Positions 1 through 11,661 of a stretch of 64,000 bases of DNA are shown here, in pieces. The stretch is from the NCBI GenBank assembly GCA_018653315.1, contig JABIAL010000016.1:3433-67432 (forward strand). Reading direction: 5' to 3'. The notes beneath the pieces are model-generated. The model was given only the letters and a program-made list of their open reading frames with translations, searched no databases and was not told the DNA's origin. The first letter of the stretch is position 1. Every line of letters begins with the position of its first letter. Origin of the DNA: a bacterium (GTDB lineage Bacteria; Patescibacteriota; Patescibacteriia; UBA1558; GWA2-36-10). A program made the translations under genes and the position numbers.

Positions 1-618
1 GCTGTTAATCAGCTGGATAATTATAAATTTGGTACCGTTGGTAAGGCTTTGGACTGCAATAAGGTAAAAATAGCAGAGAATAAAGAGATTATTGTTAGCG
101 GAGACAATGTAATGATGGGTTATTATGATAATCCAGAAGCAACAAAAGAGGTGATTAAAGATGGTTGGTTTTATACTGGTGATTTGGGCTTTATTGATGA
201 GGATGGTTTTTTGACTATTATTGGTAGAGCTAAAGATATCATTGTCTTATCGACAGGTAAGAATATATTTCCTGAGCCGATAGAAAATGCATTAAATGAA
301 AGCAAATATATTAATCAAAGTTTTGTTTATGGCGATAATGATAAGAATCTTTCAGTTTTAATAGTTCCTGATTTTGAAGAGTTAGCTATTTGGTCTCGTA
401 AAAATGATGTAGATTTTTCTTTACCAGATGCTTTAAAGAATAGCAAGGTTTTGATTCTGTATAAAAAGAAAATAGATAAGTGGTTGAAGGGTTTTTCTGA
501 GATTGAAAAAGTACAAAATTTTATTTTAGTTAGTGAGGAATTTAGTCAGGAGAATGGCTTATTGACTCCAACTTTAAAGTTGAGAAGAAAAATGATTAAA
601 GGTAAGTTTGATTTATGA
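1..618 (+). CDS. AMP-dependent synthetase/ligase (acyl-CoA synthetase-like), C-terminal part; 5' end lies outside the window
   Basis: Frame 1 is open from base 1. The translation contains the C-terminal AMP-binding motifs (GEI.V.G..VM.GY...PE.T......DGWFYTGDLG..DEDG.L.I.GR.KD.I...G.NI.P..IE) typical of acyl-CoA ligases. Confidence 0.75.
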   Translation, partial: AVNQLDNYKFGTVGKALDCNKVKIAENKEIIVSGDNVMMGYYDNPEATKEVIKDGWFYTGDLGFIDEDGFLTIIGRAKDIIVLSTGKNIFPEPIENALNESKYINQSFVYGDNDKNLSVLIVPDFEELAIWSRKNDVDFSLPDALKNSKVLILYKKKIDKWLKGFSEIEKVQNFILVSEEFSQENGLLTPTLKLRRKMIKGKFDL

Positions 619-639
619 TGATTTAATTAATTTTTAAAT

Positions 640-1332
640 ATGGGCATACAAAATATAAGTATTCTTATTATCAGTTCTCTTACCATATTGTTAGGATTTT
701 TGGTATTAAGAAAAAAATATAAAAATCCTGGTAATACATGGTATTTTTTAATGTGCCTTTTCGGTGGTGGTTGGGGAGTTATGAAAGCGATAGAGCTTTC
801 TTCAACGAGCGTCTATTGGCATGATTTTGTGTTTAAATTTGTTATGTTTTTTGGTATAATGGCACCATTGGCATATTTTATGTTAGCGTATAATTTTATT
901 TATAAAGTCAAAAATTTACCTAAAATATTATTATATTTCATATCTTCTGTTACTATAGTATTAGCTATTTTAAGTTTCGCGGGAGTATTAAAGTATGTTG
1001 ATGCTGCTATCATAGACGGTGTATTGTATAGAAATATTATTTTTTGGGATTATTTAATTTTTGTAGTTTACTTTTTTGTTTATGTATTCTTAGGACTTAT
1101 TATTTTGTTTAAAAAATATACCACAGCAGAAGGCACACATAAGAATCAATTTAGGTATTTAATAATCGGTACTGCTTTAACATTTTTGGTAACAGGCGTT
1201 GTAAGTGTAATTTTTTTATTGTTTAATAATTTTACATATGATTGGCTTGGCGCGATATTTTTGTCAATTCATTTATTGATTATTAGTCATTTTTTGTTTA
1301 TTAAACCAAAGATAGTCGCAAGTAGGGAGTGA
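640..1332 (+). CDS. polytopic membrane protein, standalone paralog of the N-terminal 7TM sensor domain of the downstream histidine kinase
   Basis: 230 aa with 6-7 hydrophobic helices. Blocks LGFLVLRKK, APLAYFMLAYNFIYK and LGLIILFKKYT...FRYLIIGTALTFL align with FGFFVLLKR, APLFLFFVFYFIYK and LGFILLIKKYT...IKYILIGTVISSL in the 2734..5547 protein. Confidence 0.6.
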   Translation: MGIQNISILIISSLTILLGFLVLRKKYKNPGNTWYFLMCLFGGGWGVMKAIELSSTSVYWHDFVFKFVMFFGIMAPLAYFMLAYNFIYKVKNLPKILLYFISSVTIVLAILSFAGVLKYVDAAIIDGVLYRNIIFWDYLIFVVYFFVYVFLGLIILFKKYTTAEGTHKNQFRYLIIGTALTFLVTGVVSVIFLLFNNFTYDWLGAIFLSIHLLIISHFLFIKPKIVASRE

Positions 1333-1338
1333 TATTTT

Positions 1339-2064
1339 ATGAAATATGAGTTAGAAGAAAAATTTTGGTTAAAGTATTTTAATGTTTATGATGCATTAGT
1401 TAATTTGATTCCTTACCAAAATGTTTTAGAAGACATTATATCTCTTTTGCCTAGTAAGAATTTAAAAATTTTAGAAACAGGATGTGGAACTGGTAATTTA
1501 ATTTTTTACATAGCTGATAATGTAAAGTATAAAAGATTAGTAGGAGTAGATTATTCTCTTGCGGCATTGACATTGGCTAATAAAAAAATAGAAAATAGAA
1601 AAAATATCATATTTAAATATGCTGACATAAGACAACATTTTGTATTTAAGGATGAAGAATTTGAAGTAATAGTTATGAATAATGTTTTGTATACATTGCC
1701 CGTTTCTAAGAGACAGGATTTAATACATGAAGTTTATAGGATGCTTAAACCAGGAGGTATTTTTATATTATCAAATATTAATATTCATTTTAAACCAATG
1801 TTGATATATAAAACACATATTTTAAAATCTATAAAAAAGAAAGGTTTCATTGTTACTATTACGCAGGTTTTTCAATTGATATATCCGACTGTAATGATTT
1901 TTTATTATAATTTTTTAATAAAAAAATCTAATAAGGGAGGTTTATATGATTTTATCAAACAAGGTGAACAGGCGGATTTATTGAGAAATAGTAAATTTAA
2001 AATAAATATTAATGATAAGCTAACTTATGCAGGAAGTGCATTTTTATCTAAAGGAACAAAATGA
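1339..2064 (+). CDS. class I SAM-dependent methyltransferase
   Basis: Motif I LETGCGTGNL, followed by a post-I acidic residue (VDYS) and motif II/III (LKPGGIFILS). The 241-aa length fits the family. Confidence 0.7.
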   Translation: MKYELEEKFWLKYFNVYDALVNLIPYQNVLEDIISLLPSKNLKILETGCGTGNLIFYIADNVKYKRLVGVDYSLAALTLANKKIENRKNIIFKYADIRQHFVFKDEEFEVIVMNNVLYTLPVSKRQDLIHEVYRMLKPGGIFILSNINIHFKPMLIYKTHILKSIKKKGFIVTITQVFQLIYPTVMIFYYNFLIKKSNKGGLYDFIKQGEQADLLRNSKFKININDKLTYAGSAFLSKGTK

Positions 2065-2747
2065 TTGTATTAAAAAAGTATAATGTTAATTGTCTTGGTA
2101 TAACAGACAATCTCTTAGTCTTTATTCCTAATACTTATATTGAAAAACAAAAAATGTATAAATTTCGATATAACGTTTATTTAAAAAAACATTATATTAC
2201 ACCAAACTTAGATATGTTGGATATAGATATTTATGACAAAGAAAATGGTGTAATATATATAAACGTATTTAGTGTTAAATTGAAAAAGATATTAGGTTCG
2301 GTAAGGATAATAACTAGACAAAATTTACCAATATTAAAAGATTGTTTTAATTTTAAAGAACCGCTTAGTATTAAATTATTTGCTAAACATAATATTGCTG
2401 AGTTGAGCCGCTTAATTATAATGCCATATACGAAAAATAAATTTTTACCTAGGCATTTAATATTAATCATTATGATAAAGGAGGTTTTACAGATACTTAA
2501 AGATAAAAAAATATTTTTTGTATATGCATTTATTAAAAGTAAATTATACTTTAAATTTAAAAAAATAAAATTGCCATTTTACAGCATCAAAAATTATAAT
2601 ATGAAATATAATGATGGTGTATTGAAAGAATATTTTAATCAAAAAAATGATCCGGTTTTACCTGTGTACTTTAATTATTTTTTTGTTAAATTATTTTTAG
2701 TACTTACATACGTAAAAATAAAAAAATATATAAATGTTATTGATTAA
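2061..2747 (+). CDS. GNAT-fold acyltransferase resembling autoinducer-synthase/FeeM-type N-acyl amino acid synthases (PF13444-like)
   Basis: The pattern F(R/K)YNVY...D.LD.D.YD......I.V......G.VRI.......LP.......F.......AELSRLII.PY matches the LuxI-like N-acyltransferase fold signature. The gene is translationally coupled to the MTase (ATGA overlap) and to the HK. Confidence 0.45.
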   Translation: MIVLKKYNVNCLGITDNLLVFIPNTYIEKQKMYKFRYNVYLKKHYITPNLDMLDIDIYDKENGVIYINVFSVKLKKILGSVRIITRQNLPILKDCFNFKEPLSIKLFAKHNIAELSRLIIMPYTKNKFLPRHLILIIMIKEVLQILKDKKIFFVYAFIKSKLYFKFKKIKLPFYSIKNYNMKYNDGVLKEYFNQKNDPVLPVYFNYFFVKLFLVLTYVKIKKYINVID

Positions 2748-5547
2748 TTTTTTATTACTAATTTCTTTTTTGATTAATCTTTTTTTTGGATTTTTTGTAT
2801 TATTAAAGAGAAAATCAGTAGATTATACCAGGTTAATTCTAGGCTTAATTTCAGTTGTAGTAGCCTTTTGGTGCCTTTCTTTATATCTTTATAGATTGAA
2901 TAGCGATGTTTTTCATATTGAATTGTGGGGTAAGATAGCACATATATTTGGTGCACTATTAGCACCATTGTTTTTATTTTTTGTATTTTATTTTATATAC
3001 AAGAATGTTATTAAGCGTATATTATTTAAAATAGTATTACCATCAATTTTATTTATTATAGTTGCTATATTATTATTGTTTACAGATTGGATCATAGGTG
3101 GTGGCTATGTGGTGAATAACGTTAATAATGTAGAATTATTTTTTGGATATTATATTTATATATTTTATTTGGTCATTCATTTTAATTTAGGTTTTATATT
3201 GTTAATAAAAAAATATACACATAGTAACGCATTAGAAAAAGAACAAATAAAATATATTTTAATAGGTACTGTTATTTCTTCATTGGGTGCTATAATTTTT
3301 GATTTAGTATATCCAATTTTTGTTGATTTTTCATTAAATTGGGTGGGTCCAGTTGTTACTATAACCATGGTAGTATCCATGGCATATGCTATCATTAGAT
3401 ATCGTTTAATGAATATTAAATTAATATTGGCACGTAGTATTCTTTATACCATTTTAGTTGGTACTGTGGCTAGTTTTTTTGCTTTTTTGCTTTTTTATAT
3501 TGGTCCGATATTATTTGGAGACACTAACAAAGGGCGTGTTATTAGCACTATTATTAGTTCTATTTTGATTGTTTTACTTTTGGATCCAATCAAGCGAGTT
3601 TGGGCAAAAATAACGGATAGTATTTTTTATAAAGATAAAATTAATTATCAACAAGTATTGCGTCATACTAGTGGTGTTATAGCCCGTGAGATTGATTTAG
3701 ATGATTTATTAGCTAATTTGACTAAGTTATTAGCTACAGAATTGAAGTTGAAACAAACCTTGGTGTTAATGCCAAGAGATAATAATTTCACTTTGATAGC
3801 GAGTTCAGCAGGAGTTAAATCACAGGTACAAATTACTAAACAGACCACTCAATATTTTGTTGATAACCATGGTTTTTTGATTACAGAAGAATTAATAAAA
3901 TTGCATGATGATTTTCATGATCAGAAAAAACAGCAGGAGTTAAATCATGTTATTCAGGAATTAGAACAAATTAAAGCAGAGATGGTGATTCCAATTGTTG
4001 AAGCAGATAAAACAGTAGCTTTGCTTGTTTTGGATCGTAAACTTTCTGGGGATATTTATGATAGTGCAGATATTGATTTTTTCAAGATTTTAGCTCCACA
4101 GATCGCTACGGCTATTGAGAAGTCTAAATTATATGAAGAAGTACAGGAATTAAACCGTGACTTACAAGCCAAGGTGGATGAGCGCACCAAGAGCTTAGAA
4201 CAGGCTAATGCAGATTTAGAATCGCGTAATCGTTATTTGACTACTATGCAGGTAATTCTAAATATGATTAGTCGTAGCTTAGATCTAAAAAAAGTTACCC
4301 AGATGATCGCCGATAGCATTGCTTCTGAGCTTGGCTATATTGGCGGTGTTTTAAGTTTTGTCAACGGCGATGGTAAATTACGAGTGAAGGCAGTAACACA
4401 GAATCATAAGGCCAAAACAGCTATAGATCTTTTGCCAGAAGATATATTTAAGTATAAAGCAGATTTAAAACATGGCTATAATCTAGGGGTGGATACTGTT
4501 TTGTCTGCTAAGATTAATTTTTCTCCCAAAATGACTGATTTTTTCTCACCGCCAGTTGATGAGGGAGTTATCGATAAAATTCAAGAACACCTTGGTGTAA
4601 AAACGATTATTGGCATTCCTATTTTTTCAGAAGATAAAATTATCGGTATTGTTCATTTTTTAGTCGCTGTAGAGAGAGAAAAAATTTCTTCTTTGGATAT
4701 TGAAATGATGACATCTTTGACCAATCAGGTAGGAATAGTTTCTCGTAATTTAGAGCTATACGAAAATTTACAAAAAGTAAATAAAGATTTACATGAAGCT
4801 AATACTCATCTAAAAGTTTTGGATAAAGCAAAGTCAGAATTTTTATCTATTGCCTCTCATCAATTACGTACGCCAATTTCCGCTATTAAAGGCTATCTAT
4901 CTATGATGATTGATGGTGATTTTGGTAAGATTCCAAATAATATCAGCAAATTAATTAGTGATTTATTTGAAAGTGCTTCTCGTTTAGCTAGAACTATTAA
5001 TGTCTTTTTAAATGTTTCTCGTATTGAAGCTGGACGTTTAAAATTAGATAAACATGCTGTGCAAATCGATACTATGGTTACTAGCGTTATCACTGAATTA
5101 CAAAATGCAGCTATTAATAAAGGCATTAAATTGAGTTATATAAAATCAAAGCAAGAAGTTCCCTTGATTTATGCAGATAATGATAAATTGCGAGAAGTAG
5201 TTTTGAATTTAATAGACAATGCTATTAAATATACTCCAAAAGGGTCAATAGAAGTTTTTTTAGAATTTAATGAGCAAGTTTTGACTTTTATTTCTCGTGA
5301 TACAGGCATTGGTATTCACACAGAAGAAGCACGGACTTTGTTTAGAAAATTTGTGCGTGGTGACGGAGTAGCTCAAATTCATACTGGCGGTTCTGGTTTA
5401 GGTTTATTTATTGCTCAGAAGATAGTCAAAGAGCATGATGGTCGTATTTGGGTAGAAAGCGAAGGCAAAGGTAAGGGTAGTGTTTTTAAATTTGAAGTAC
5501 CAATAGCAACTGAAAAGCAAATAGCTGACGCATCAGCCGAAGAATAA
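2734..5547 (+). CDS. sensor histidine kinase: N-terminal 7TM sensor domain, GAF domains, HisKA and HATPase_c
   Basis: Multi-TM N-terminus; H-box SHQLRTPISAIKGY; N-box LIDNAIKYT; G1 DTGIGI; G2 GGSGLGL. No response regulator gene lies adjacent. Confidence 0.85.
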   Translation: MLLINFLLLISFLINLFFGFFVLLKRKSVDYTRLILGLISVVVAFWCLSLYLYRLNSDVFHIELWGKIAHIFGALLAPLFLFFVFYFIYKNVIKRILFKIVLPSILFIIVAILLLFTDWIIGGGYVVNNVNNVELFFGYYIYIFYLVIHFNLGFILLIKKYTHSNALEKEQIKYILIGTVISSLGAIIFDLVYPIFVDFSLNWVGPVVTITMVVSMAYAIIRYRLMNIKLILARSILYTILVGTVASFFAFLLFYIGPILFGDTNKGRVISTIISSILIVLLLDPIKRVWAKITDSIFYKDKINYQQVLRHTSGVIAREIDLDDLLANLTKLLATELKLKQTLVLMPRDNNFTLIASSAGVKSQVQITKQTTQYFVDNHGFLITEELIKLHDDFHDQKKQQELNHVIQELEQIKAEMVIPIVEADKTVALLVLDRKLSGDIYDSADIDFFKILAPQIATAIEKSKLYEEVQELNRDLQAKVDERTKSLEQANADLESRNRYLTTMQVILNMISRSLDLKKVTQMIADSIASELGYIGGVLSFVNGDGKLRVKAVTQNHKAKTAIDLLPEDIFKYKADLKHGYNLGVDTVLSAKINFSPKMTDFFSPPVDEGVIDKIQEHLGVKTIIGIPIFSEDKIIGIVHFLVAVEREKISSLDIEMMTSLTNQVGIVSRNLELYENLQKVNKDLHEANTHLKVLDKAKSEFLSIASHQLRTPISAIKGYLSMMIDGDFGKIPNNISKLISDLFESASRLARTINVFLNVSRIEAGRLKLDKHAVQIDTMVTSVITELQNAAINKGIKLSYIKSKQEVPLIYADNDKLREVVLNLIDNAIKYTPKGSIEVFLEFNEQVLTFISRDTGIGIHTEEARTLFRKFVRGDGVAQIHTGGSGLGLFIAQKIVKEHDGRIWVESEGKGKGSVFKFEVPIATEKQIADASAEE

Positions 5548-5682: not shown

Positions 5683-6057
5683 ATGAAAACTAGCAATTCA
5701 ATTTGGCTGTTTCTTTTGATTTTTGTCTTTGTTATTGGTCTTTTTTTATTTTTAAATAAATCTACTGTCCAAGATAAAACACAGCTAACGCTAGCTGATG
5801 TATCTGAGTGTCAATCAGAGAAGATTGAAATATCTGTTTGGCAATTACCTGCTAATACGATTTTACTTAATACTTTTATTAGTTTTAAAAGTTTTCCTTT
5901 GGCTGAAGAATTAAAAGATAAGATAACTAATTGGGGGATCGCCTTAGATGAAAATTCTTTAATTTTTGATTATCTATGGGCCAGTATTCCAGTTGAACAT
6001 TTATGTGATTTAGTAGAATTAGATGAAGTTACTTCTGTTTTTACTTTAAATAAATAA
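5683..6057 (+). CDS. hypothetical membrane-anchored/secreted small protein
   Basis: 124-aa ORF with an N-terminal hydrophobic segment (IWLFLLIFVFVIGLFLFL). It sits directly upstream of pgk. Confidence 0.5.
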   Translation: MKTSNSIWLFLLIFVFVIGLFLFLNKSTVQDKTQLTLADVSECQSEKIEISVWQLPANTILLNTFISFKSFPLAEELKDKITNWGIALDENSLIFDYLWASIPVEHLCDLVELDEVTSVFTLNK

Positions 6058-6058
6058 G

Positions 6059-7222
6059 ATGAAACTAAAAAGTATCAAACAAATCAAAAATCTTAAAGCT
6101 AAGCGAATTTTATTACGCTTGGATTTAAATGTGCCGATTAAAAAAGGAAAGATCAGACAAGCAGACACTTGGCGTTTAGAGCAAGCTGTCTCGACTATAA
6201 ATTATTTGGCTAATAAGGGGGCTAAGGTTATTATTTTGGCTCACTTGGGTCGTCCAAATGGAAAGAAAATTAGAGCACTTTCTCTGCGTCCAGTGGCAGA
6301 ATATTTATCCAAATTAACTGGCCGGGCAATTAATTTATGGACAGAAGATTTAACAAATTATCAGACGGCTAGTCAAGAATTAGCAGTTGGTCAAGTCGTG
6401 ATGTTGGAAAATATTCGTTTTCATCCACGGGAAAAGAAAAATTGTAAACGTTTGGCTAAGACGCTTAGTAAATTAGCAGATATTTATGTTAACGATGCTT
6501 TTGGTAATGTACATCGTCAAGATACTTCAATGCTTGCTATTACTGAATTTTTACCTAGTTACGCTGGTTTGAGATTAATAGAAGAGATTAAGCAGTTGAC
6601 TAATATTTTACAAACTAAAAAAGGTTTAATTCTTTTATTGGGTGGTGCTAAAGTAGCTACTAAAATTGAATTATTAAAAAAATTTATTAGGAAAGCAGAC
6701 CATGTTTTGTTAGGCGGTATGCTGGCAAATACTTTTTTAGTAGCTCGAGGATATGATTTAGGGCATTCTTTATTAAACAAAGAAGAGCTAATAGTAGCTA
6801 AAAAGTTGACCAGTAAGAAATTAGTTTTACCTTTAGATGCAACTATGGCCAATAGCTTGCAAGCTAAGAAGTGTTTTATAGCTGATATTGATCAGATACC
6901 TGCTAAAATGATGGCTGTAGACATTGGTCCTAAAACATTACTTGAGTATAGTAAGATTTTAGCTAAGGCTAAAGTAGTGGTTTGGAACGGTCCTTTGGGT
7001 TATTTTGAAAATGATAAAGTTATAGATAATTCTGTAAAATTAGCCAAAAAATTAAGTAAGATAAAAGCCAAAACTATTGTTGGTGGCGGAGAGACAGTAG
7101 CCATGATTAGTCGTTTTGGTTTACGTCAAAAATTTGATTTTGTCTCTACTGGTGGTGGATCAATGATAGCTTTTTTAGAGGGACACAAATTACCGGTGTT
7201 AGAAAAATTAAAAATTAAATAA
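6059..7222 (+). CDS. pgk: phosphoglycerate kinase
   Basis: RLDLNVP N-terminal motif, a glycine-rich C-terminal domain (GGGETVA...GGGS), and a 387-aa length. Confidence 0.9.
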   Translation: MKLKSIKQIKNLKAKRILLRLDLNVPIKKGKIRQADTWRLEQAVSTINYLANKGAKVIILAHLGRPNGKKIRALSLRPVAEYLSKLTGRAINLWTEDLTNYQTASQELAVGQVVMLENIRFHPREKKNCKRLAKTLSKLADIYVNDAFGNVHRQDTSMLAITEFLPSYAGLRLIEEIKQLTNILQTKKGLILLLGGAKVATKIELLKKFIRKADHVLLGGMLANTFLVARGYDLGHSLLNKEELIVAKKLTSKKLVLPLDATMANSLQAKKCFIADIDQIPAKMMAVDIGPKTLLEYSKILAKAKVVVWNGPLGYFENDKVIDNSVKLAKKLSKIKAKTIVGGGETVAMISRFGLRQKFDFVSTGGGSMIAFLEGHKLPVLEKLKIK

Positions 7223-7236
7223 CATTTTTAGTGTGT

Positions 7237-8508
7237 ATGCCAGATAAAATAAAAAAAATAACGGCTTTAGAAATATTAGATTCACGTGGTGAACCAACTT
7301 TGCAAGTAGAAGTAGAATTATCCAATGGAACAATTGGACAGGCTTCCGTGCCATCTGGTGCTTCAACCGGACGTTTTGAGGCCTACGAATTAAGAGATGA
7401 CGATGCTTTTCGTTATGGTGGAAAAGGCGTTTTGAAGGCTGTGGATAATGTAAATAAAATTTTAAATAAAGAGCTCAATGGCTTACGAGTGGTAGAACAA
7501 AAACAAATTGATGACTTAATGCTTAGTATAGACGGCACTAAAAATAAGAGTAAATTAGGAGCAAATGCTATTTTAGGTGTTTCTCTAGCAGTAGCTCATA
7601 CTGCTGCTAAGTCAACTGGACAACCGTTATATAAATATTTACGTCAGCTTTATAAGCCAGAATTAAAAACATATAATTTACCAACGCCGGTTGTTAATGT
7701 TATTAATGGTGGTAAACATGCTAGTACTAATATTGATTTGCAAGAATTTTGGATCGTACCTCATAAAGCAACTAAGTTTAAAGATAAATTACAGCAGGCT
7801 AGTAATATTTTTCATGCTTTAGGTGAATTATTACATTCAGTTGGCTATGATACTGATTTAGGCAATGAAGGTGGTTATGCACCAAATGTAAAATCACATC
7901 GCGAGATTTTTGATATGATTATGCAGGCAATAAATTCAGCGGGGCTTGAACCGGACAAGGATATTATTCTAGGAATTGACGCTGGTGCTTCAGTATTTTA
8001 TAACGCAGAAACAAAAACTTACGATCTTAATTTAGATAAATTAAGCATGAGCAGTGAAGAGATGGTTGATTATTATTTGGATCTAATAACAGAATATCCA
8101 TTAAGACTTTTGGAAGATCCATTTGAGGAAGAAGATTGGGCTACTTGGACTTTATTGAATAAAAATTCATTGATTAAGGATTATAAAATTAAAGTGATTG
8201 GTGATGATTTATTTGTTACGAATGTAAAACGTTTACAAAAAGGTTTGGAATTACAAGCAGCTAATTCTATTTTGATTAAACCAAACCAAATTGGTACATT
8301 ATCTGAGACTTTTGATGCTATTCGTTTGGCCCAGGATAATGATTACCAGATAATTATTTCTCATCGTAGTGGCGAGACAACTGATACGACTATTGCTGAT
8401 TTAGCTGTAGCAGTTGATGCTCAGTTTATTAAAACAGGTTCTACAGCTAGAGGTGAGAGGATCGCCAAATACAATCGTTTATTAAAAATTGAAGAAGATT
8501 TAAAATAA
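7237..8508 (+). CDS. eno: enolase (phosphopyruvate hydratase)
   Basis: MPDKIKKITALEILDSRGEPTLQVEV N-terminus and the SHRSGETTDTTIADLAV motif. The ATG at 7237 is preferred over the GTG at 7231. Confidence 0.93.
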   Translation: MPDKIKKITALEILDSRGEPTLQVEVELSNGTIGQASVPSGASTGRFEAYELRDDDAFRYGGKGVLKAVDNVNKILNKELNGLRVVEQKQIDDLMLSIDGTKNKSKLGANAILGVSLAVAHTAAKSTGQPLYKYLRQLYKPELKTYNLPTPVVNVINGGKHASTNIDLQEFWIVPHKATKFKDKLQQASNIFHALGELLHSVGYDTDLGNEGGYAPNVKSHREIFDMIMQAINSAGLEPDKDIILGIDAGASVFYNAETKTYDLNLDKLSMSSEEMVDYYLDLITEYPLRLLEDPFEEEDWATWTLLNKNSLIKDYKIKVIGDDLFVTNVKRLQKGLELQAANSILIKPNQIGTLSETFDAIRLAQDNDYQIIISHRSGETTDTTIADLAVAVDAQFIKTGSTARGERIAKYNRLLKIEEDLK

Positions 8509-8509
8509 C

Positions 8510-10087
8510 ATGCCTAAAAATATAAAAAATAAAACAACAAATACACCATTAGTTTTGGTTATTTTGGATGGTTGGGGTTTATGGAAAGAAACAGAAGGCA
8601 ATGCCATTGCTCAAGCCAAGACGCCGGTAATGGATGGCTTGTATAAGCAATATCCTCATACAAAAATAAATGCTTCAGAAAAAGAAGTTGGTTTATCTAA
8701 GAACCAGCCAGGAAATTCAGAAGCAGGACATATGAACATTGGTGCGGGAAGAGTAGTTGAACAAGATTCTATTAGTATTTCTAAGAGCATCAATAATGGT
8801 ACTTTTTTTAAGAATCCAGCTTTTTTGCAAGCAGCTACTCAGGTTACTAAAAATAAATCAGATATTCATCTAATTGGCTTACTATCTGATAAGTCTAGTC
8901 CACATGCTGATAATGATCATATTTTGTCCTTGTTAAGTTTTTTTGTAAATAAAACAGATCGTAATATTTATTTGCATTTGTTTACTGATGGTCGTGATAG
9001 TCCGCAATTTGCAGCTGCTCGTATTTTGGAAAAATATAAAATTATTTTTGATCGCAAACGAATAAAGATAGCTACTATTATGGGTCGTTTTTACGCCATG
9101 GATCGTAAAAAGACTTGGGATCGAACTGAGACTGCCTATAAGGCTATGGTTTTAGGTCAAGGCATAGAAGTGGAAAGTGCATCAGAAGCTGTTAATCAAG
9201 CCTATAATAGAGGAGAGAGCGATGAGTTTATTCAGCCAACTGTTATTGTTAAAAATAAAAAACCAATAGCCACTATAAAAGATAAAGACGCAGTAATATT
9301 CTTTAATTTGCGTTCAGATCGAGCACGACAATTAGCCAAGGTATTTGCTCAAACTAATTTTGAAAAGAAAAATAAAGGAGCTTTTAAACCCAAGAAAAAA
9401 TTTAAGAATTTATTATTTGTAGCTTTGACTGATTTTGGTCCTGATTTGGATAATATCTTAACTGCTTTCCCGGGTATTGATATACCAGAGACATTGCCAT
9501 TTACCTTGCGTGATTTACGTCAATTATATATTGCTGAAACAGAAAAATATGCCCATGTTACTTATTTTTTTAACGGTGGTTATGACCATGTGATAGCCGG
9601 TGAGGACAGAGTAGAAATTCCATCAAAGGATGTTGATTCTTATTCTACAGTGCCCGCTATGAGCACCAAGGAGGTTAATATACATGTTAGGAAAGTCATT
9701 AAGGAAGATAAATATGATTTTATTTGTGTAAATTTTGCTAGCCCAGATATGGTTGCTCATACAGGTGATTTGGTAGCTGGTATAAAAGCAGTGGAAGTAG
9801 TTGATACAGAATTAGGCAAGTTGGTAAATACTGTTTTGAAGAAAAATGGCACTATTATTGTTACGGCTGATCATGGCAATATTGAAGAGATGATAAATTT
9901 AGAAACTAAAGAAATCGATACTAAGCATTCTATTAATCCGGTGCCTTTGATTGTAATAAATCATATAAAATATAAATTAAGAAAAAATGGTAAATTAGCA
10001 GATATTGCACCTACCATTTTAGATATTTTAGACTTGCCAAAACCAAAATTGATGCAAGCAAAATCTTTAATAAAATCGAGAGTATGA
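8510..10087 (+). CDS. gpmI: 2,3-bisphosphoglycerate-independent phosphoglycerate mutase (copy 1)
   Basis: LVILDGWG, catalytic-serine motif PGNSEAGHMNIGAGR, FTDGRDSP and TADHGN. Confidence 0.9.
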   Translation: MPKNIKNKTTNTPLVLVILDGWGLWKETEGNAIAQAKTPVMDGLYKQYPHTKINASEKEVGLSKNQPGNSEAGHMNIGAGRVVEQDSISISKSINNGTFFKNPAFLQAATQVTKNKSDIHLIGLLSDKSSPHADNDHILSLLSFFVNKTDRNIYLHLFTDGRDSPQFAAARILEKYKIIFDRKRIKIATIMGRFYAMDRKKTWDRTETAYKAMVLGQGIEVESASEAVNQAYNRGESDEFIQPTVIVKNKKPIATIKDKDAVIFFNLRSDRARQLAKVFAQTNFEKKNKGAFKPKKKFKNLLFVALTDFGPDLDNILTAFPGIDIPETLPFTLRDLRQLYIAETEKYAHVTYFFNGGYDHVIAGEDRVEIPSKDVDSYSTVPAMSTKEVNIHVRKVIKEDKYDFICVNFASPDMVAHTGDLVAGIKAVEVVDTELGKLVNTVLKKNGTIIVTADHGNIEEMINLETKEIDTKHSINPVPLIVINHIKYKLRKNGKLADIAPTILDILDLPKPKLMQAKSLIKSRV

Positions 10088-11661
10088 ACAGACCACGTCC
10101 AGTTGTTTTAATAGTGTTAGATGGTTTTGGTTTGGCTCCACCGTCACGAGCCAATGCTATTTCTTTGGCTAAAACACCCAATTTTGATAAGTATATGAGT
10201 AATTATCCGGTCATGCCAGTATCTGCTGCTGGAGGAGCGGTTGGTTTAAATTGGGGTGAAATTGGTAATTCAGAAGTGGGTCATTTATCTTTGGGTTCTG
10301 GTACTATTTGTTACCAGAATTTGCCACGGATCACAAAGTCTATTTCCGAGGGTGATTTTTTTTCTAATGAAGCTTTTATTTCTGCTTGCAAACATGTTAA
10401 AGAAAAAGGGTCTAGTTTGCATTTGATGGGTCTGATGTCTTCAGGTGGTGTGCATAGTTTTAATGAGCATCTGTATGCTTTAGTAGAATTAGCTAAGAAA
10501 GAGAAAGTAGAGCGAGTTTATATTCATGCATTTTTGGATGGTCGTGATGTTCCTTATAGTAGCGGTCTAAATTTTATTGCTAAATTGCAGGAAAAATTAA
10601 AAATAATTGGCTTAGGTGCAATAGCTTCAATTAGTGGTCGTTTTTATGCTATGGATCGTGATAATAATTGGGATCGAATAGAGAAAGCATATCGGGCTAT
10701 TGTTGACGGCAAGAATGAAATAAAATATGAAGATCCAGTAGAGGCTATCAAAGCGTCTTATAATCAAGGTATCTATGATGAAGAATTTGTACCAACTGCT
10801 ATCGTTGACGACAGACAGCAGGCTAAAGGTAAGATTCAAGACGGTGATGGTATTATTTTTTTCAATTTTCGTTCAGATCGAGCACGACAATTAACCAAAG
10901 CCTTGGTTTTACCAGGGTTTGAAAAATTTAAATGTCAATATTTTCAAAACTTATTTATGGTTACTATGACAGAATATGAAAAAGATTTACCAGTAACCAT
11001 TGCTTTTCCGCCAATAGTAATAAAAACTCCATTAGCTAAGGTTATTGCTGATGCTGGTTTAAAGCAATTACATACAGCGGAGACAGAGAAATTCGCTCAT
11101 GTTACTTATTTCTTTAATGGTGGTAGTGACATAATTTTTGATAATGAAGACAGAGAATTAATACCATCTCCTCATGTGCCTTCTTATGATCAGAAACCAG
11201 CCATGTCGGCTAGAGAAATTACCAATAAATTAGTGCAGAAAATAAAAGAGGGGAATTATGATTTTATAGTAGTTAATTATGCCAATGCGGACATGGTCGG
11301 ACATACTGGTAATTTGAATGCTACAATTGAAGCAGTAGAGATTCTAGATAAATTAATAGGAGAATTAGTAGATACTATTTTATCTTATAATGGCGTGGCA
11401 TTAATCACAGCTGATCATGGCAATGCAGAAGTTATGTATGATTTACAAACAGGTGAAATCAGCAAAGAACATTCTAATAATCCGGTGCCGTTATTTGTTA
11501 TTGGACAGCAATTTGCTGGTAAGAGTGTCTTGCCTGGTTTGTCGGGTAGAGATCTAAGTCAAATAACGCCAGTAGGTGTATTGGCAGATATAGCGCCAAC
11601 TGTTTTGAAAATCATGGGATTGAAAAAACCAGCCAAAATGACTGGTAGTTCGTTAGTTTAA
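10084..11661 (+). CDS. gpmI: 2,3-bisphosphoglycerate-independent phosphoglycerate mutase (copy 2, tandem paralog)
   Basis: VLDGFG, IGNSEVGHLSLGSGT, FLDGRDVP and TADHGN. It overlaps copy 1 by 4 nt (ATGA) and is 525 aa, the same length as copy 1. Confidence 0.9.
   Translation: MNRPRPVVLIVLDGFGLAPPSRANAISLAKTPNFDKYMSNYPVMPVSAAGGAVGLNWGEIGNSEVGHLSLGSGTICYQNLPRITKSISEGDFFSNEAFISACKHVKEKGSSLHLMGLMSSGGVHSFNEHLYALVELAKKEKVERVYIHAFLDGRDVPYSSGLNFIAKLQEKLKIIGLGAIASISGRFYAMDRDNNWDRIEKAYRAIVDGKNEIKYEDPVEAIKASYNQGIYDEEFVPTAIVDDRQQAKGKIQDGDGIIFFNFRSDRARQLTKALVLPGFEKFKCQYFQNLFMVTMTEYEKDLPVTIAFPPIVIKTPLAKVIADAGLKQLHTAETEKFAHVTYFFNGGSDIIFDNEDRELIPSPHVPSYDQKPAMSAREITNKLVQKIKEGNYDFIVVNYANADMVGHTGNLNATIEAVEILDKLIGELVDTILSYNGVALITADHGNAEVMYDLQTGEISKEHSNNPVPLFVIGQQFAGKSVLPGLSGRDLSQITPVGVLADIAPTVLKIMGLKKPAKMTGSSLV

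What the first reader, a model, noticed from the sequence alone, without database searches (positions are those of the whole stretch)
1..5547. Candidate acyl-signal synthesis-and-sensing locus: acyl-activating enzyme, standalone 7TM sensor, methyltransferase, LuxI/FeeM-fold-like N-acyltransferase, orphan 7TM-GAF histidine kinase
Five co-directional, tightly packed genes begin the window. The ATGA overlap at 2061-2064 and the overlap at 2734-2747 imply translational coupling.
- Gene 2061..2747 shows the residue pattern of autoinducer-synthase-fold N-acyl amino acid synthases: FRYNVY near the N-terminus, a D.LD.D.YD acidic stretch, G.VRI....LP, and AELSRLII.PY.
- It sits after an AMP-binding acyl-activating enzyme (1..618), a frequent partner of FeeM-type synthases in established examples, and after a SAM methyltransferase.
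- The 937-aa kinase (2734..5547) has no response regulator within at least 55 kb downstream.
- Its 7TM sensor module is duplicated as a standalone gene (640..1332).
Together this looks like a small-molecule (N-acylated, possibly methylated) signal synthesis-plus-sensing module, which would be unusual in a reduced genome.
Basis: partly seen in the sequence, partly recalled or inferred. Interest (0 to 1): 0.65.

Follow-up and report, generated by a model that had tools for sequence, protein, structure and literature searches.

The report
Acyl-lipid synthase coupled to membrane kinase
A tiny-genome (Patescibacteria) bacterium carries a conserved gene set, made of a LuxI/FeeM-type N-acyltransferase, a methyltransferase and a seven-helix membrane sensor kinase plus fatty-acid-handling enzymes, that probably makes and senses a methylated N-acyl lipid; the synthase-kinase pairing was already noted computationally in 2020, and neither the product nor the function has been shown.

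Summary
All five ORFs, both overlaps and the quoted motifs are at the stated coordinates.

The 228-aa protein belongs to the LuxI/FeeM branch of GNAT acyltransferases:
- Pfam FeeM scores 27.3 bits against a cutoff of 27.
- The AlphaFold model has pLDDT 96.8.
- Residues matching the LuxI signature are near-invariant across 108 homologs.

The ligase is a FadD-type fatty-acid ligase, not acetyl-CoA synthetase. No receiver domain occurs anywhere in the 64 kb.

New findings:
- Methyltransferase, synthase and HisKA_7TM kinase sit together in all 16 related loci fetched, in permuted order.
- Synthase-methyltransferase fusion proteins exist in both orders.
- The locus extends upstream, with two more 7TM paralogs, an alpha/beta-hydrolase and the full ligase, and lies between gap/cysS and pgk.

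The organism is a Parcubacteria-type Patescibacterium.

The best reading is a self-made methylated N-acyl lipid sensed by the kinase. A serious rival is membrane aminolipid synthesis, because PlsC-type acyltransferases flank the module in several relatives.

Bernard et al. 2020 already reported LuxI-homolog/kinase synteny in CPR genomes, so this is a new variant of a known kind. The chemistry is untested.

The parts
1..618 (+). C-terminal 205 aa of a 567-aa FadD-type fatty-acid--CoA (AMP-forming) ligase; the gene starts upstream of the window.
   Evidence: Pfam AMP-binding_C_3 at 9.8e-8. NCBIfam FadD11 at 3.5e-31, with many long-chain ligase models also matching. The full-length gene is recovered in L001 6855-8558: AMP-binding 263 bits, and FadD11 aligned end to end. 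It is conserved next to the module in L011.
640..1332 (+). Standalone HisKA_7TM membrane protein (230 aa) with no output domain.
   Evidence: Pfam HisKA_7TM 45.1 bits, residues 8-214. It is 32% identical over 142 aa to the kinase sensor. Standalone copies recur in L010, L012, L017 and L022.
1339..2064 (+). Class I SAM-dependent methyltransferase (241 aa), overlapping the next gene by ATGA.
   Evidence: Pfam Methyltransf_25/11/31 at 67-73 bits. The closest solved relatives by sequence are phosphoethanolamine N-methyltransferases, 4e-13, covering the Rossmann part only. It is present in all 16 related loci and is fused to the synthase in P0045, P0058 and P0068.
2061..2747 (+). LuxI/FeeM-fold N-acyltransferase (228 aa). 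Predicted catalytic Glu114. Signature residues R36, Y40, Y45, D54, D56, D59, R82, S116, R117.
2734..5547 (+). Sensor histidine kinase (937 aa) whose start overlaps the synthase gene by 14 nt.
   Evidence: Pfam HisKA_7TM, GAF (two stretches), HisKA and HATPase_c. The H-box SHQLRTP and the N, G1 and G2 boxes are visible in the translation. Orthologous kinases follow the synthase and methyltransferase in every related locus.
2752..3417 (+). HisKA_7TM sensor module of the kinase (residues 7-228).
   Evidence: Pfam 45.4 bits. This is the only sensor part kept in all orthologs, since the 535-551-aa kinases in L011 and L020 lack GAF. It has no match to NCBIfam sensor families or to PDB sequences.
3694..4119 (+). 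First GAF domain (residues 321-462). A second GAF stretch lies between it and HisKA.
   Evidence: Pfam GAF 56 bits in two stretches, plus GAF_2 and GAF_3.
4828..5505 (+). Kinase core: HisKA (residues 699-767) and HATPase_c (residues 815-924).
   Evidence: Pfam 51.6 and 88.5 bits. Many NCBIfam kinase models match at 1e-30 to 1e-50.
5683..6057 (+). 124-aa protein with an N-terminal hydrophobic segment, between the kinase and pgk. Its membership in the module is uncertain.
   Evidence: No Pfam or NCBIfam family matches. It is conserved at the same position only in the close relative L007, 1e-38, and is absent from the more distant loci.

Best explanation
This is the local copy of a conserved Patescibacteria module. 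Its core is a LuxI/FeeM-fold N-acyltransferase, a class I SAM methyltransferase and a histidine kinase whose sensor is a HisKA_7TM membrane domain.

In this lineage the core is extended by a FadD-type fatty-acid ligase, an alpha/beta-hydrolase and three further 7TM paralogs. One of those carries a GAF domain but no kinase.

Proposed mechanism, with shown and inferred steps marked:
1. The hydrolase frees fatty acids and the ligase activates them, probably from host lipids (inferred).
2. The acyltransferase moves the acyl group onto an amine, with Glu114 as the base. The amine is most likely an amino acid or a similar small amine. The fold and the active-site residues are shown; the substrates are inferred.
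3. The methyltransferase methylates that product, for example to a neutral methyl ester or an N-methyl head group. The linkage is shown by universal synteny and by fusions; the chemistry is inferred.
4. The hydrophobic product partitions into the membrane and is perceived by the 7TM domain of the translationally coupled kinase. This would be an autoinducer-like synthase/receptor circuit, analogous to LuxM/LuxN, CqsA/CqsS or PhcB/PhcS (inferred).
5. The kinase signals to a response regulator encoded elsewhere (inferred).
For: Fold and family:
- Searches place the protein with LuxI-type synthases and FeeM.

Active site: R36, D56, D59, R82, E114 and R117 are kept in 105-108 of 108 homologs. In the profile alignment they align with the conserved R, D, D, R, E and R of RpaI, EsaI and BjaI. 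[quoted passage not shown]

Linkage:
- Methyltransferase, synthase and 7TM kinase are adjacent in all 16 related loci, at 20-50% protein identity and in two gene orders.
- Fusions exist as synthase-MT and as MT-synthase.
- The genes overlap by 4 and 14 nt here.

Only the 7TM part of the sensor is kept in all orthologs, which fits a membrane-borne ligand.

The FadD-type ligase and the hydrolase are conserved with the module in L011.

Precedents for a synthase gene next to a membrane kinase receptor, and for methyl-ester signals or analogues:
- PhcB/PhcS (PMC8578825).
- N-acyl alanine methyl esters (PMC11580390).

Independent in-silico report of LuxI homologs next to sensory kinases in CPR genomes: PMC7567580.
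Against: - No product, substrate or ligand has been measured for any member of this family.
- PlsC-type O-acyltransferases sit beside the module in L013, L014 and L019 and near it in L020, where there is also an MMPL transporter. This points to a diacylated membrane lipid rather than a diffusible signal.
- The methyltransferase's closest solved relatives are lipid head-group N-methyltransferases.
- The 7TM domain has no detectable similarity to known autoinducer-sensing domains.
- No cognate regulator lies within 64 kb, so the output is unknown.
- The purpose of several standalone 7TM paralogs is unexplained.
Confidence: 0.4

Rival explanations
1. Membrane aminolipid synthesis. The N-acyltransferase makes an N-acyl amino acid (a lyso-aminolipid), as OlsB or GlsB do. 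A second acyltransferase adds an ester-linked fatty acid: PlsC-type in some relatives, and possibly the alpha/beta-hydrolase here, as OlsI does. The methyltransferase N-methylates the head group, as OlsG does. The ligase supplies scavenged fatty acids. The 7TM kinase and its paralogs monitor or regulate membrane composition rather than a secreted signal.
For: - A PlsC-type acyltransferase (Pfam PF01553, 70-71 bits) lies directly upstream of the module in L013 and L014, adjacent in L019, and 2 kb away in L020 next to an MMPL transporter.
- Of 108 homologs, 83 hit Acetyltransf_5, and 2 hit the NCBIfam OlsB models.
- The operon OlsH (adenylating), OlsG (N-methyltransferase) and OlsI (alpha/beta-hydrolase O-acyltransferase) makes methylated ornithine lipid (PMC12493201). 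The same three enzyme classes occur here.
- The methyltransferase's nearest solved sequences are phosphoethanolamine and phosphatidylethanolamine N-methyltransferases.
Against: - A second acyltransferase is absent from most of the 16 loci.
- The hydrolase here matches the OlsI model only at E 0.004, 16.7 bits against a cutoff of 385.
- The family scores better against FeeM, exosort_acyl and Autoind_synth than against OlsB-type models.
- Lipid-synthesis operons are not usually locked gene-by-gene to a sensor kinase. Here the kinase is present in 16 of 16 loci and is translationally coupled.
- The methyltransferase similarity covers only the SAM-binding part.
Confidence: 0.3
2. Canonical acyl-homoserine-lactone quorum sensing. 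The 228-aa protein is a true LuxI-type synthase that uses SAM and acyl-CoA, as BjaI, RpaI and MesI do, with the ligase providing acyl-CoA. The kinase replaces LuxR as the receptor, as LuxN does in Vibrio.
For: - JGI/IMG already names the protein N-acyl-L-homoserine lactone synthetase.
- The ten classic LuxI signature positions are kept or conservatively replaced, with F to Y, W to Y and E to D. PMC7567580 notes the same aromatic replacement in CPR homologs.
- The top structural neighbours are AHL synthases, including the CoA-dependent ones.
Against: - The protein itself does not reach Pfam Autoind_synth at all, and its best profile matches are FeeM and exosort_acyl.
- From established knowledge of these Pfam families, the same acidic and arginine motif is shared by non-AHL members of the superfamily, so it does not prove SAM use.
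- An obligatory, sometimes fused methyltransferase has no role in AHL synthesis.
- There is no LuxR-type gene among the neighbours.
Confidence: 0.1
3. Peptide or other macromolecule acylation. The GNAT enzyme lipidates a ribosomal peptide or a protein, which is then methylated. The kinase belongs to a peptide-signal circuit.
For: - A radical-SAM/SPASM gene lies within the cassette neighbourhood in L015 and L017.
[quoted passage not shown] 2011, as cited in PMC4897644).
Against: - Radical-SAM genes are present in only 2 of 16 loci and absent here.
- No precursor-peptide candidate, exosortase or peptide exporter was seen among the neighbours.
- The close structural relatives all act on small amines.
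Confidence: 0.05

Closest known systems
LuxI-type acyl-homoserine-lactone synthases (LasI, TofI, EsaI; CoA-dependent BjaI, RpaI, MesI)
   Different: Only 10-16% identity. There is no Pfam Autoind_synth hit for this protein. Trp34 is replaced by Tyr. It is always paired with a methyltransferase and a membrane kinase instead of a LuxR-type receptor. Use of SAM as the amine donor is unproven.
[quoted passage not shown]
   Different: The score is far below the TIGR03694 cutoff (35 against 112 bits). There is no exosortase, PEP-CTERM or acyl-carrier-protein gene in the locus. The methyltransferase and 7TM-kinase coupling is not described for those synthases.
Synthase/membrane-kinase quorum-sensing pairs (LuxM/LuxN, CqsA/CqsS, PhcB/PhcS)
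   Same: The synthase gene lies next to a polytopic membrane histidine kinase. A lipid-like product is expected. A SAM methyltransferase takes part, as PhcB does (PMC8578825).
   Different: The synthase belongs to another enzyme family than LuxM, CqsA or PhcB. The 7TM sensor shows no detectable homology to those receptors. No HPt protein or response regulator is nearby.
CPR LuxI-homolog/sensory-kinase pairs reported by Bernard et al. 2020 (PMC7567580)
   Same: The same kind of synteny in the same superphylum: 18 LuxI homologs adjacent to a putative sensory kinase. The aromatic replacement of Trp35 was noted there too.
   Different: That study did not describe the obligatory methyltransferase, the fusions, the HisKA_7TM identity of the sensor, the standalone 7TM paralogs or the lipid-handling accessory genes. 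I did not verify that its proteins belong to exactly this family.
Aminolipid pathways OlsB/OlsA, GlsB/GlsA and OlsH-OlsG-OlsI
   Same: The first step is N-acylation of an amino acid by an enzyme of the same superfamily (OlsB/GlsB, from established knowledge). Gene sets combining an adenylating enzyme, a methyltransferase and an alpha/beta-hydrolase or PlsC-type acyltransferase are shared (PMC12493201).
   Different: The match to OlsB models is weak (2 of 108). A second acyltransferase is missing in most loci. A kinase is always attached.

Membership tests
LuxI-type AHL synthase (Pfam PF00765 Autoind_synth) | LuxI-type alpha/beta/alpha GNAT-like fold | tested here: met
LuxI-type AHL synthase (Pfam PF00765 Autoind_synth) | Match to the family profile at its curated threshold | tested here: not met
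   No Autoind_synth hit for the window protein even at E<=1. Of 108 homologs, 76 hit at E<=1e-3.
LuxI-type AHL synthase (Pfam PF00765 Autoind_synth) | Conserved residues R24, F28, W34, E43, D45, D48, R68, E101, S103, R104 (numbering from established literature) | tested here: met
   The equivalents are R36, Y40, Y45, D54, D56, D59, R82, E114, S116 and R117. Three are conservative replacements. They are kept in 98-108 of 108 homologs.
LuxI-type AHL synthase (Pfam PF00765 Autoind_synth) | Uses SAM as the amine donor and forms a homoserine lactone | not testable with these tools
   This needs an enzyme assay or LC-MS.
[quoted passage not shown] | Match to the Pfam FeeM profile at the gathering score | tested here: met
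   27.3 bits against a cutoff of 27.0, which is marginal. 107 of 108 homologs hit, best 4.7e-17.
[quoted passage not shown] | Match to TIGR03694 at its cutoff, and linkage to exosortase/PEP-CTERM genes | tested here: not met
   35.2 bits against a cutoff of 111.95. None of the genes within 10 kb is an exosortase.
[quoted passage not shown] | Catalytic glutamate (FeeM Glu95, Nas354 Glu103; PMC4897644) | tested here: met
   E114 lies within the matched FeeM stretch (residues 32-131). It is Glu in 106 and Asp in 2 of 108 homologs.
[quoted passage not shown] | [quoted passage not shown] | not testable with these tools
   This needs heterologous expression and LC-MS.
OlsB/GlsB-type aminolipid pathway | N-acyltransferase matching Acetyltransf_5 or the OlsB models | tested here: not met
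   Acetyltransf_5 scores 20.1 bits against a cutoff of 22.4 for this protein. 83 of 108 homologs hit Acetyltransf_5, but only 2 of 108 hit the OlsB models.
OlsB/GlsB-type aminolipid pathway | Partner O-acyltransferase (PlsC-type OlsA/GlsA, or alpha/beta-hydrolase OlsI) | tested here: inconclusive
   PlsC-type genes are adjacent in L013, L014 and L019 and near in L020, but not in the other loci. The hydrolase here matches the OlsI model only at E 0.004, 16.7 bits against a cutoff of 385.
Autoinducer synthase / membrane receptor-kinase pair (LuxM/N, CqsA/S, PhcB/S type) | Synthase gene adjacent to a polytopic membrane histidine kinase, conserved across genomes | tested here: met
   16 of 16 related loci.
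Autoinducer synthase / membrane receptor-kinase pair (LuxM/N, CqsA/S, PhcB/S type) | Sensor domain homologous to a known autoinducer receptor | tested here: not met
   The N-terminal 320 aa give no NCBIfam hit at E<=1, and orthologs give only a weak LIC10906 family hit. There is no PDB sequence match.
Autoinducer synthase / membrane receptor-kinase pair (LuxM/N, CqsA/S, PhcB/S type) | Cognate response regulator or phosphorelay partner nearby | tested here: not met
   No receiver domain was found in the 64-kb window or in 10 kb upstream. Among the related loci, a single-domain regulator was found only in L014, directly after the kinase.
HisKA_7TM sensor histidine kinase (Pfam PF16927) | N-terminal 7TM domain plus an intact HisKA/HATPase_c core | tested here: met
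   HisKA_7TM 45.4, HisKA 51.6 and HATPase_c 88.5 bits. The H, N, G1 and G2 boxes are present in the translation.

The most novel reading that the evidence does not exclude
The module makes a so far undescribed class of bacterial signal: a methylated N-acyl amino acid or amine, a neutral analogue of acyl-homoserine lactones built from host-derived fatty acids. HisKA_7TM would then be a dedicated lipid-signal receptor domain. That would give ultra-small, host-dependent Patescibacteria a self-contained cell-cell or symbiont-host communication circuit. The standalone 7TM paralogs would act as co-receptors or modulators.
Probability: 0.3. Interest if true: 0.8.

Novelty: new variant of a known kind. 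Interest (0 to 1): 0.55.

Why it matters
Patescibacteria (CPR) are abundant, mostly uncultured, host-dependent bacteria with about 1-Mb genomes. How they perceive hosts or each other is largely unknown.

A three-gene module kept across many of their lineages is a concrete and cheap-to-test candidate for a signalling or membrane-adaptation system. The synthase and methyltransferase can be expressed in E. coli and the product read out by LC-MS.

Success would also give:
- a first ligand for the widespread but uncharacterised HisKA_7TM sensor domain;
- a clearer chemical range for the LuxI/FeeM enzyme superfamily, that is AHL versus N-acyl amino acid versus aminolipid.

If the aminolipid rival is right instead, it would show how bacteria that are thought to lack fatty-acid synthesis build non-phospholipid membrane lipids from scavenged acyl chains.

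Tried and rejected
- **Shallow structure model.** The first AF2 run used only three sequences and gave pLDDT 55, which is unusable. It was replaced by the 108-sequence run.
- **Shallow PDB profile.** The three-sequence profile found nothing in the PDB. The deep profile did.
- **Locus search.** A 6-sequence alignment worked, but it used the only genome scan, so the taxonomic spread comes from just 7 genome loci plus 9 metagenome loci.
- **afdb50.** This fold library was not available.
- **Recent horizontal island.** I considered this because of the low GC (24.5-27% in 1-4000 against 33% for the whole window) and the insertion between gap/cysS and pgk. I rejected it because the same position next to pgk and enolase is kept in L007 at about 50% protein identity. 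The low GC fits Phe/Ile/Lys/Asn-rich membrane proteins.
- **Anti-phage defence.** PADLOC gives a mad2 (MADS) hit to the methyltransferase (2e-22) and a weak PDC-M43B hit to the ATPase part of the kinase. I treat both as generic domain similarity: no other defence components matched, and the synthase and 7TM proteins had no hit.
- **PrsK-like kinase of the exosortase system.** Only a GAF-region hit at E 0.0034, so rejected.
- **Promoter and terminator scans.** No better than shuffles in this AT-rich DNA.
- **Rfam.** Only tRNAs.
- **Craig et al. 2011 (PMC3187218).** Could not be read.

Full report
**Observation**

The ORF list reproduces the five co-directional genes exactly:
- 1..618, cut by the window start;
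- 640..1332;
- 1339..2064;
- 2061..2747;
- 2734..5547.

The ATGA overlap at 2061-2064 and the 14-nt overlap at 2734-2747 are real.

Pfam and NCBIfam confirm each domain call:
- an AMP-binding C-terminus of the FadD type;
- HisKA_7TM, 45 bits, in the standalone 230-aa protein;
- a class I SAM methyltransferase;
- FeeM for the 228-aa protein (27.3 bits against a cutoff of 27; Acetyltransf_5 at 20.1 bits is below threshold; exosort_acyl TIGR03694 at 8e-9 is far below its cutoff);
- HisKA_7TM, two GAF stretches, HisKA and HATPase_c in the 937-aa kinase.

**The 228-aa protein**

The word-based search found only two full-length relatives (48-51% identity) and one fragment. An exhaustive HMMER scan of 1.84 billion representatives found 247 proteins at E<=1e-3 and 41 at E<=1e-30, mostly 245-250 aa long.

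Among 108 aligned members:
- 107 hit Pfam FeeM, 83 Acetyltransf_5 and 76 Autoind_synth;
- 104 hit NCBIfam exosort_acyl below its cutoff, 15 hit an AHL-synthase (TraI) model and 2 hit OlsB.

The family profile matches the sequences of solved LuxI-type synthases (RpaI, EsaI, BjaI, MesI, LasI, TofI) at 6e-8 to 3e-5.

Residue conservation across the 108 members:

| Residue | Members keeping it |
|---|---|
| R36 | 106 |
| Y40 | 106 |
| Y45 | 98 |
| D/E54 | 107 |
| D56 | 108 |
| D59 | 108 |
| R82 | 108 |
| E114 | 106 |
| S/G116 | 107 |
| R117 | 105 |

In the profile alignment these residues sit opposite the conserved R, aromatic, W, E/D, D, D, R, E, S and R of LuxI enzymes. The numbering of that signature is from established literature.

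The Glu equivalent to E114 is the proposed base in FeeM and was shown to be essential in Nas354 (PMC4897644).

The fold and the active site are therefore shown. The amine and acyl substrates are not.

**Neighbours and the true extent of the locus**

Exact-sequence look-up found the same genes on 18 contigs. One is a 44-kb contig that extends upstream of the window. In order it carries:
- GAPDH;
- a 136-aa membrane protein;
- CysRS;
- a 454-aa HisKA_7TM-GAF protein without a kinase;
- a 233-aa HisKA_7TM protein;
- a 325-aa asparaginase-like protein;
- a 186-aa unknown protein;
- a 263-aa alpha/beta-hydrolase (Hydrolase_4);
- the full 567-aa ligase;
- then the window genes, followed by pgk, eno and two iPGM genes.

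The ligase aligns end to end with FadD11 and other long-chain fatty-acid ligases, and with no acetyl-CoA synthetase model.

The four 7TM modules are old paralogs at 25-32% identity.

**Conservation**

I compared the proteins of this locus with every ORF of 16 related loci. These were close relatives L007-L009, seven genome loci L010-L016, and six loci of more distant family members L017-L022. The methyltransferase, the synthase and a HisKA_7TM kinase are adjacent in all of them, as MT-synthase-kinase or synthase-MT-kinase.

Four long family members are fusions:
- synthase-methyltransferase: P0045 and P0058;
- methyltransferase-synthase: P0068;
- synthase fused to a class I/II aminotransferase-fold (alpha-oxoamine-synthase-type) domain: P0064.

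The fusions and the universal synteny are strong evidence that synthase and methyltransferase act in one pathway.

The kinases in L011 and L020 are only 535-551 aa and lack GAF. The conserved sensor is therefore the 7TM domain.

Accessory genes vary between loci:
- hydrolase plus ligase in L011;
- one to three standalone 7TM genes in L010, L012, L017 and L022;
- a PlsC-type acyltransferase next to the module in L013, L014 and L019 and near it in L020, beside an MMPL transporter;
- radical-SAM/SPASM genes in L015 and L017;
- a single-domain response regulator directly after the kinase, seen only in L014.

**Response regulator**

phmmer and an HMM built from CheY, PhoB, Spo0F and NarL find no receiver domain in any frame of the 64-kb window or in L001. 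They do find the L014 regulator at 1.5e-19. The kinase is orphan within the available sequence.

**Organism**

The enolase next to the locus is closest to proteins labelled Candidatus Nomurabacteria (77%), Parcubacteria group (73%), Patescibacteria group and Komeilibacteria.

The genome loci are labelled Staskawiczbacteria, Parcubacteria and Patescibacteria. Three carry Gammaproteobacteria or Lysobacteraceae labels that fit poorly with their 26-41% GC.

The window is therefore from a Parcubacteria-type Patescibacterium. NCBI calls the protein hypothetical, and JGI/IMG calls it N-acyl-L-homoserine lactone synthetase.

**How it most likely works**

- *Shown:* a LuxI/FeeM-fold acyltransferase with an intact active site; obligatory genetic coupling to a SAM methyltransferase and to a kinase with a 7TM sensor and an intact kinase core; and, in this lineage, a fatty-acid ligase, a hydrolase and extra 7TM paralogs.
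- *Inferred:* fatty acids are activated by the ligase and transferred to an amine. The product is methylated, and the resulting hydrophobic molecule is sensed in the membrane by the 7TM kinase.

This layout mirrors known pairs of a synthase and a membrane kinase receptor. In the Ralstonia PhcB/PhcS system a SAM methyltransferase makes a fatty-acid methyl ester signal (PMC8578825, PMC11960443).

N-acyl alanine methyl esters are known natural analogues of AHLs, although there they are reported not to take part in AHL signalling (PMC11580390).

I give this reading 0.4.

**Main rival**

The same first reaction starts aminolipid synthesis. In planctomycetes, an operon of an adenylating enzyme, an N-methyltransferase and an alpha/beta-hydrolase O-acyltransferase makes methylated ornithine lipid (PMC12493201).

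Three observations fit a diacylated membrane lipid whose level the kinase monitors:
- the PlsC-type genes beside the module in several relatives;
- the hydrolase and ligase in this lineage;
- the methyltransferase's nearest solved relatives, which are head-group N-methyltransferases.

Against it:
- most loci lack a second acyltransferase;
- the OlsI match is negligible;
- the family is closer to FeeM, exosort_acyl and LuxI profiles than to OlsB;
- a kinase locked to the enzymes in 16 of 16 loci is more typical of signal circuits.

I give it 0.3. True AHL synthesis gets 0.1 and peptide lipidation gets 0.05.

**Prior knowledge and novelty**

Bernard et al. 2020 (PMC7567580) mined CPR genomes. 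They reported LuxI homologs with conserved key residues, with Trp35 replaced by Tyr or Phe. Eighteen of these sat next to a putative sensory kinase, and the authors proposed them as complete quorum-sensing systems. The synthase-kinase idea is therefore not new, and it has not been tested experimentally.

What this analysis adds:
- the obligatory and sometimes fused methyltransferase;
- the identification of the sensor as HisKA_7TM, with free-standing paralogs;
- the fatty-acid-handling accessory genes, and the aminolipid alternative they raise;
- the full extent of this locus.

I rate it a new variant of a known kind, with interest 0.55. It is a well-defined, testable candidate in an important uncultured group. 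It is partly anticipated in the literature and its function is unresolved.

Noticed in passing
window 8510-10087 and 10084-11661: Two tandem, overlapping genes both encode 525-aa cofactor-independent phosphoglycerate mutases. They are only 44% identical, and both keep the GNSE(A/V)GH active-site motif. The pair is also present on other contigs carrying the same sequence (L001-L003). Why a reduced genome keeps two divergent copies is unexplained.
   Followed up: partly
L001 1-2180 and window 6059-8508: The module lies between gap/cysS and pgk-eno, so glycolytic genes lie on both sides of it. The position next to pgk and eno is kept in a relative with about 50% protein identity (L007), so it is not a recent insertion.
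   Followed up: partly
L001 4357-5903 (upstream of the window): A 325-aa asparaginase-like protein lies inside the extended locus. It matches the Pfam Asparaginase N-terminal domain at 46 bits and the NCBIfam type I asparaginase model at 3e-15, well below its cutoff. A 186-aa protein with no family match follows it. Neither was found in the other loci. Their link to the module is unknown.
   Followed up: partly
L001 2290-3654 (upstream of the window): A 454-aa protein with HisKA_7TM followed by a GAF domain but no kinase core. It looks like a kinase-less copy of the sensor half of the 937-aa kinase (26% identity over 262 aa). L022 has a similar 480-aa protein.
   Followed up: partly
window 1-64000: GC skew is positive in every 2-kb bin, and about 50 of the 60 ORFs of at least 110 aa are on the + strand, including all the long ones outside 32-38 kb. 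Skew dips to near zero at 32-38 kb, where several long ORFs are on the - strand. This is consistent with a single replichore with strong leading-strand gene bias.
   Followed up: no
L013, L010, L014: Public records label these contigs Lysobacteraceae or Gammaproteobacteria. Their GC is 26%, 33% and 41%, and they carry the Patescibacteria-type module. The taxonomic labels look like binning or classification errors.
   Followed up: partly
P0064 (family member, not in the window): One homolog fuses the LuxI/FeeM-like domain to a class I/II aminotransferase-fold domain. From established knowledge, this is the family of alpha-oxoamine synthases such as CqsA, AONS and serine palmitoyltransferase. 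It hints that some members N-acylate a long-chain amine, which would be ceramide-like chemistry.
   Followed up: no
window 1339-2064: The methyltransferase hits the PADLOC model mad2 of the MADS defence system at 2e-22. No other defence component matched, so I regard it as generic methyltransferase-domain similarity.
   Followed up: partly
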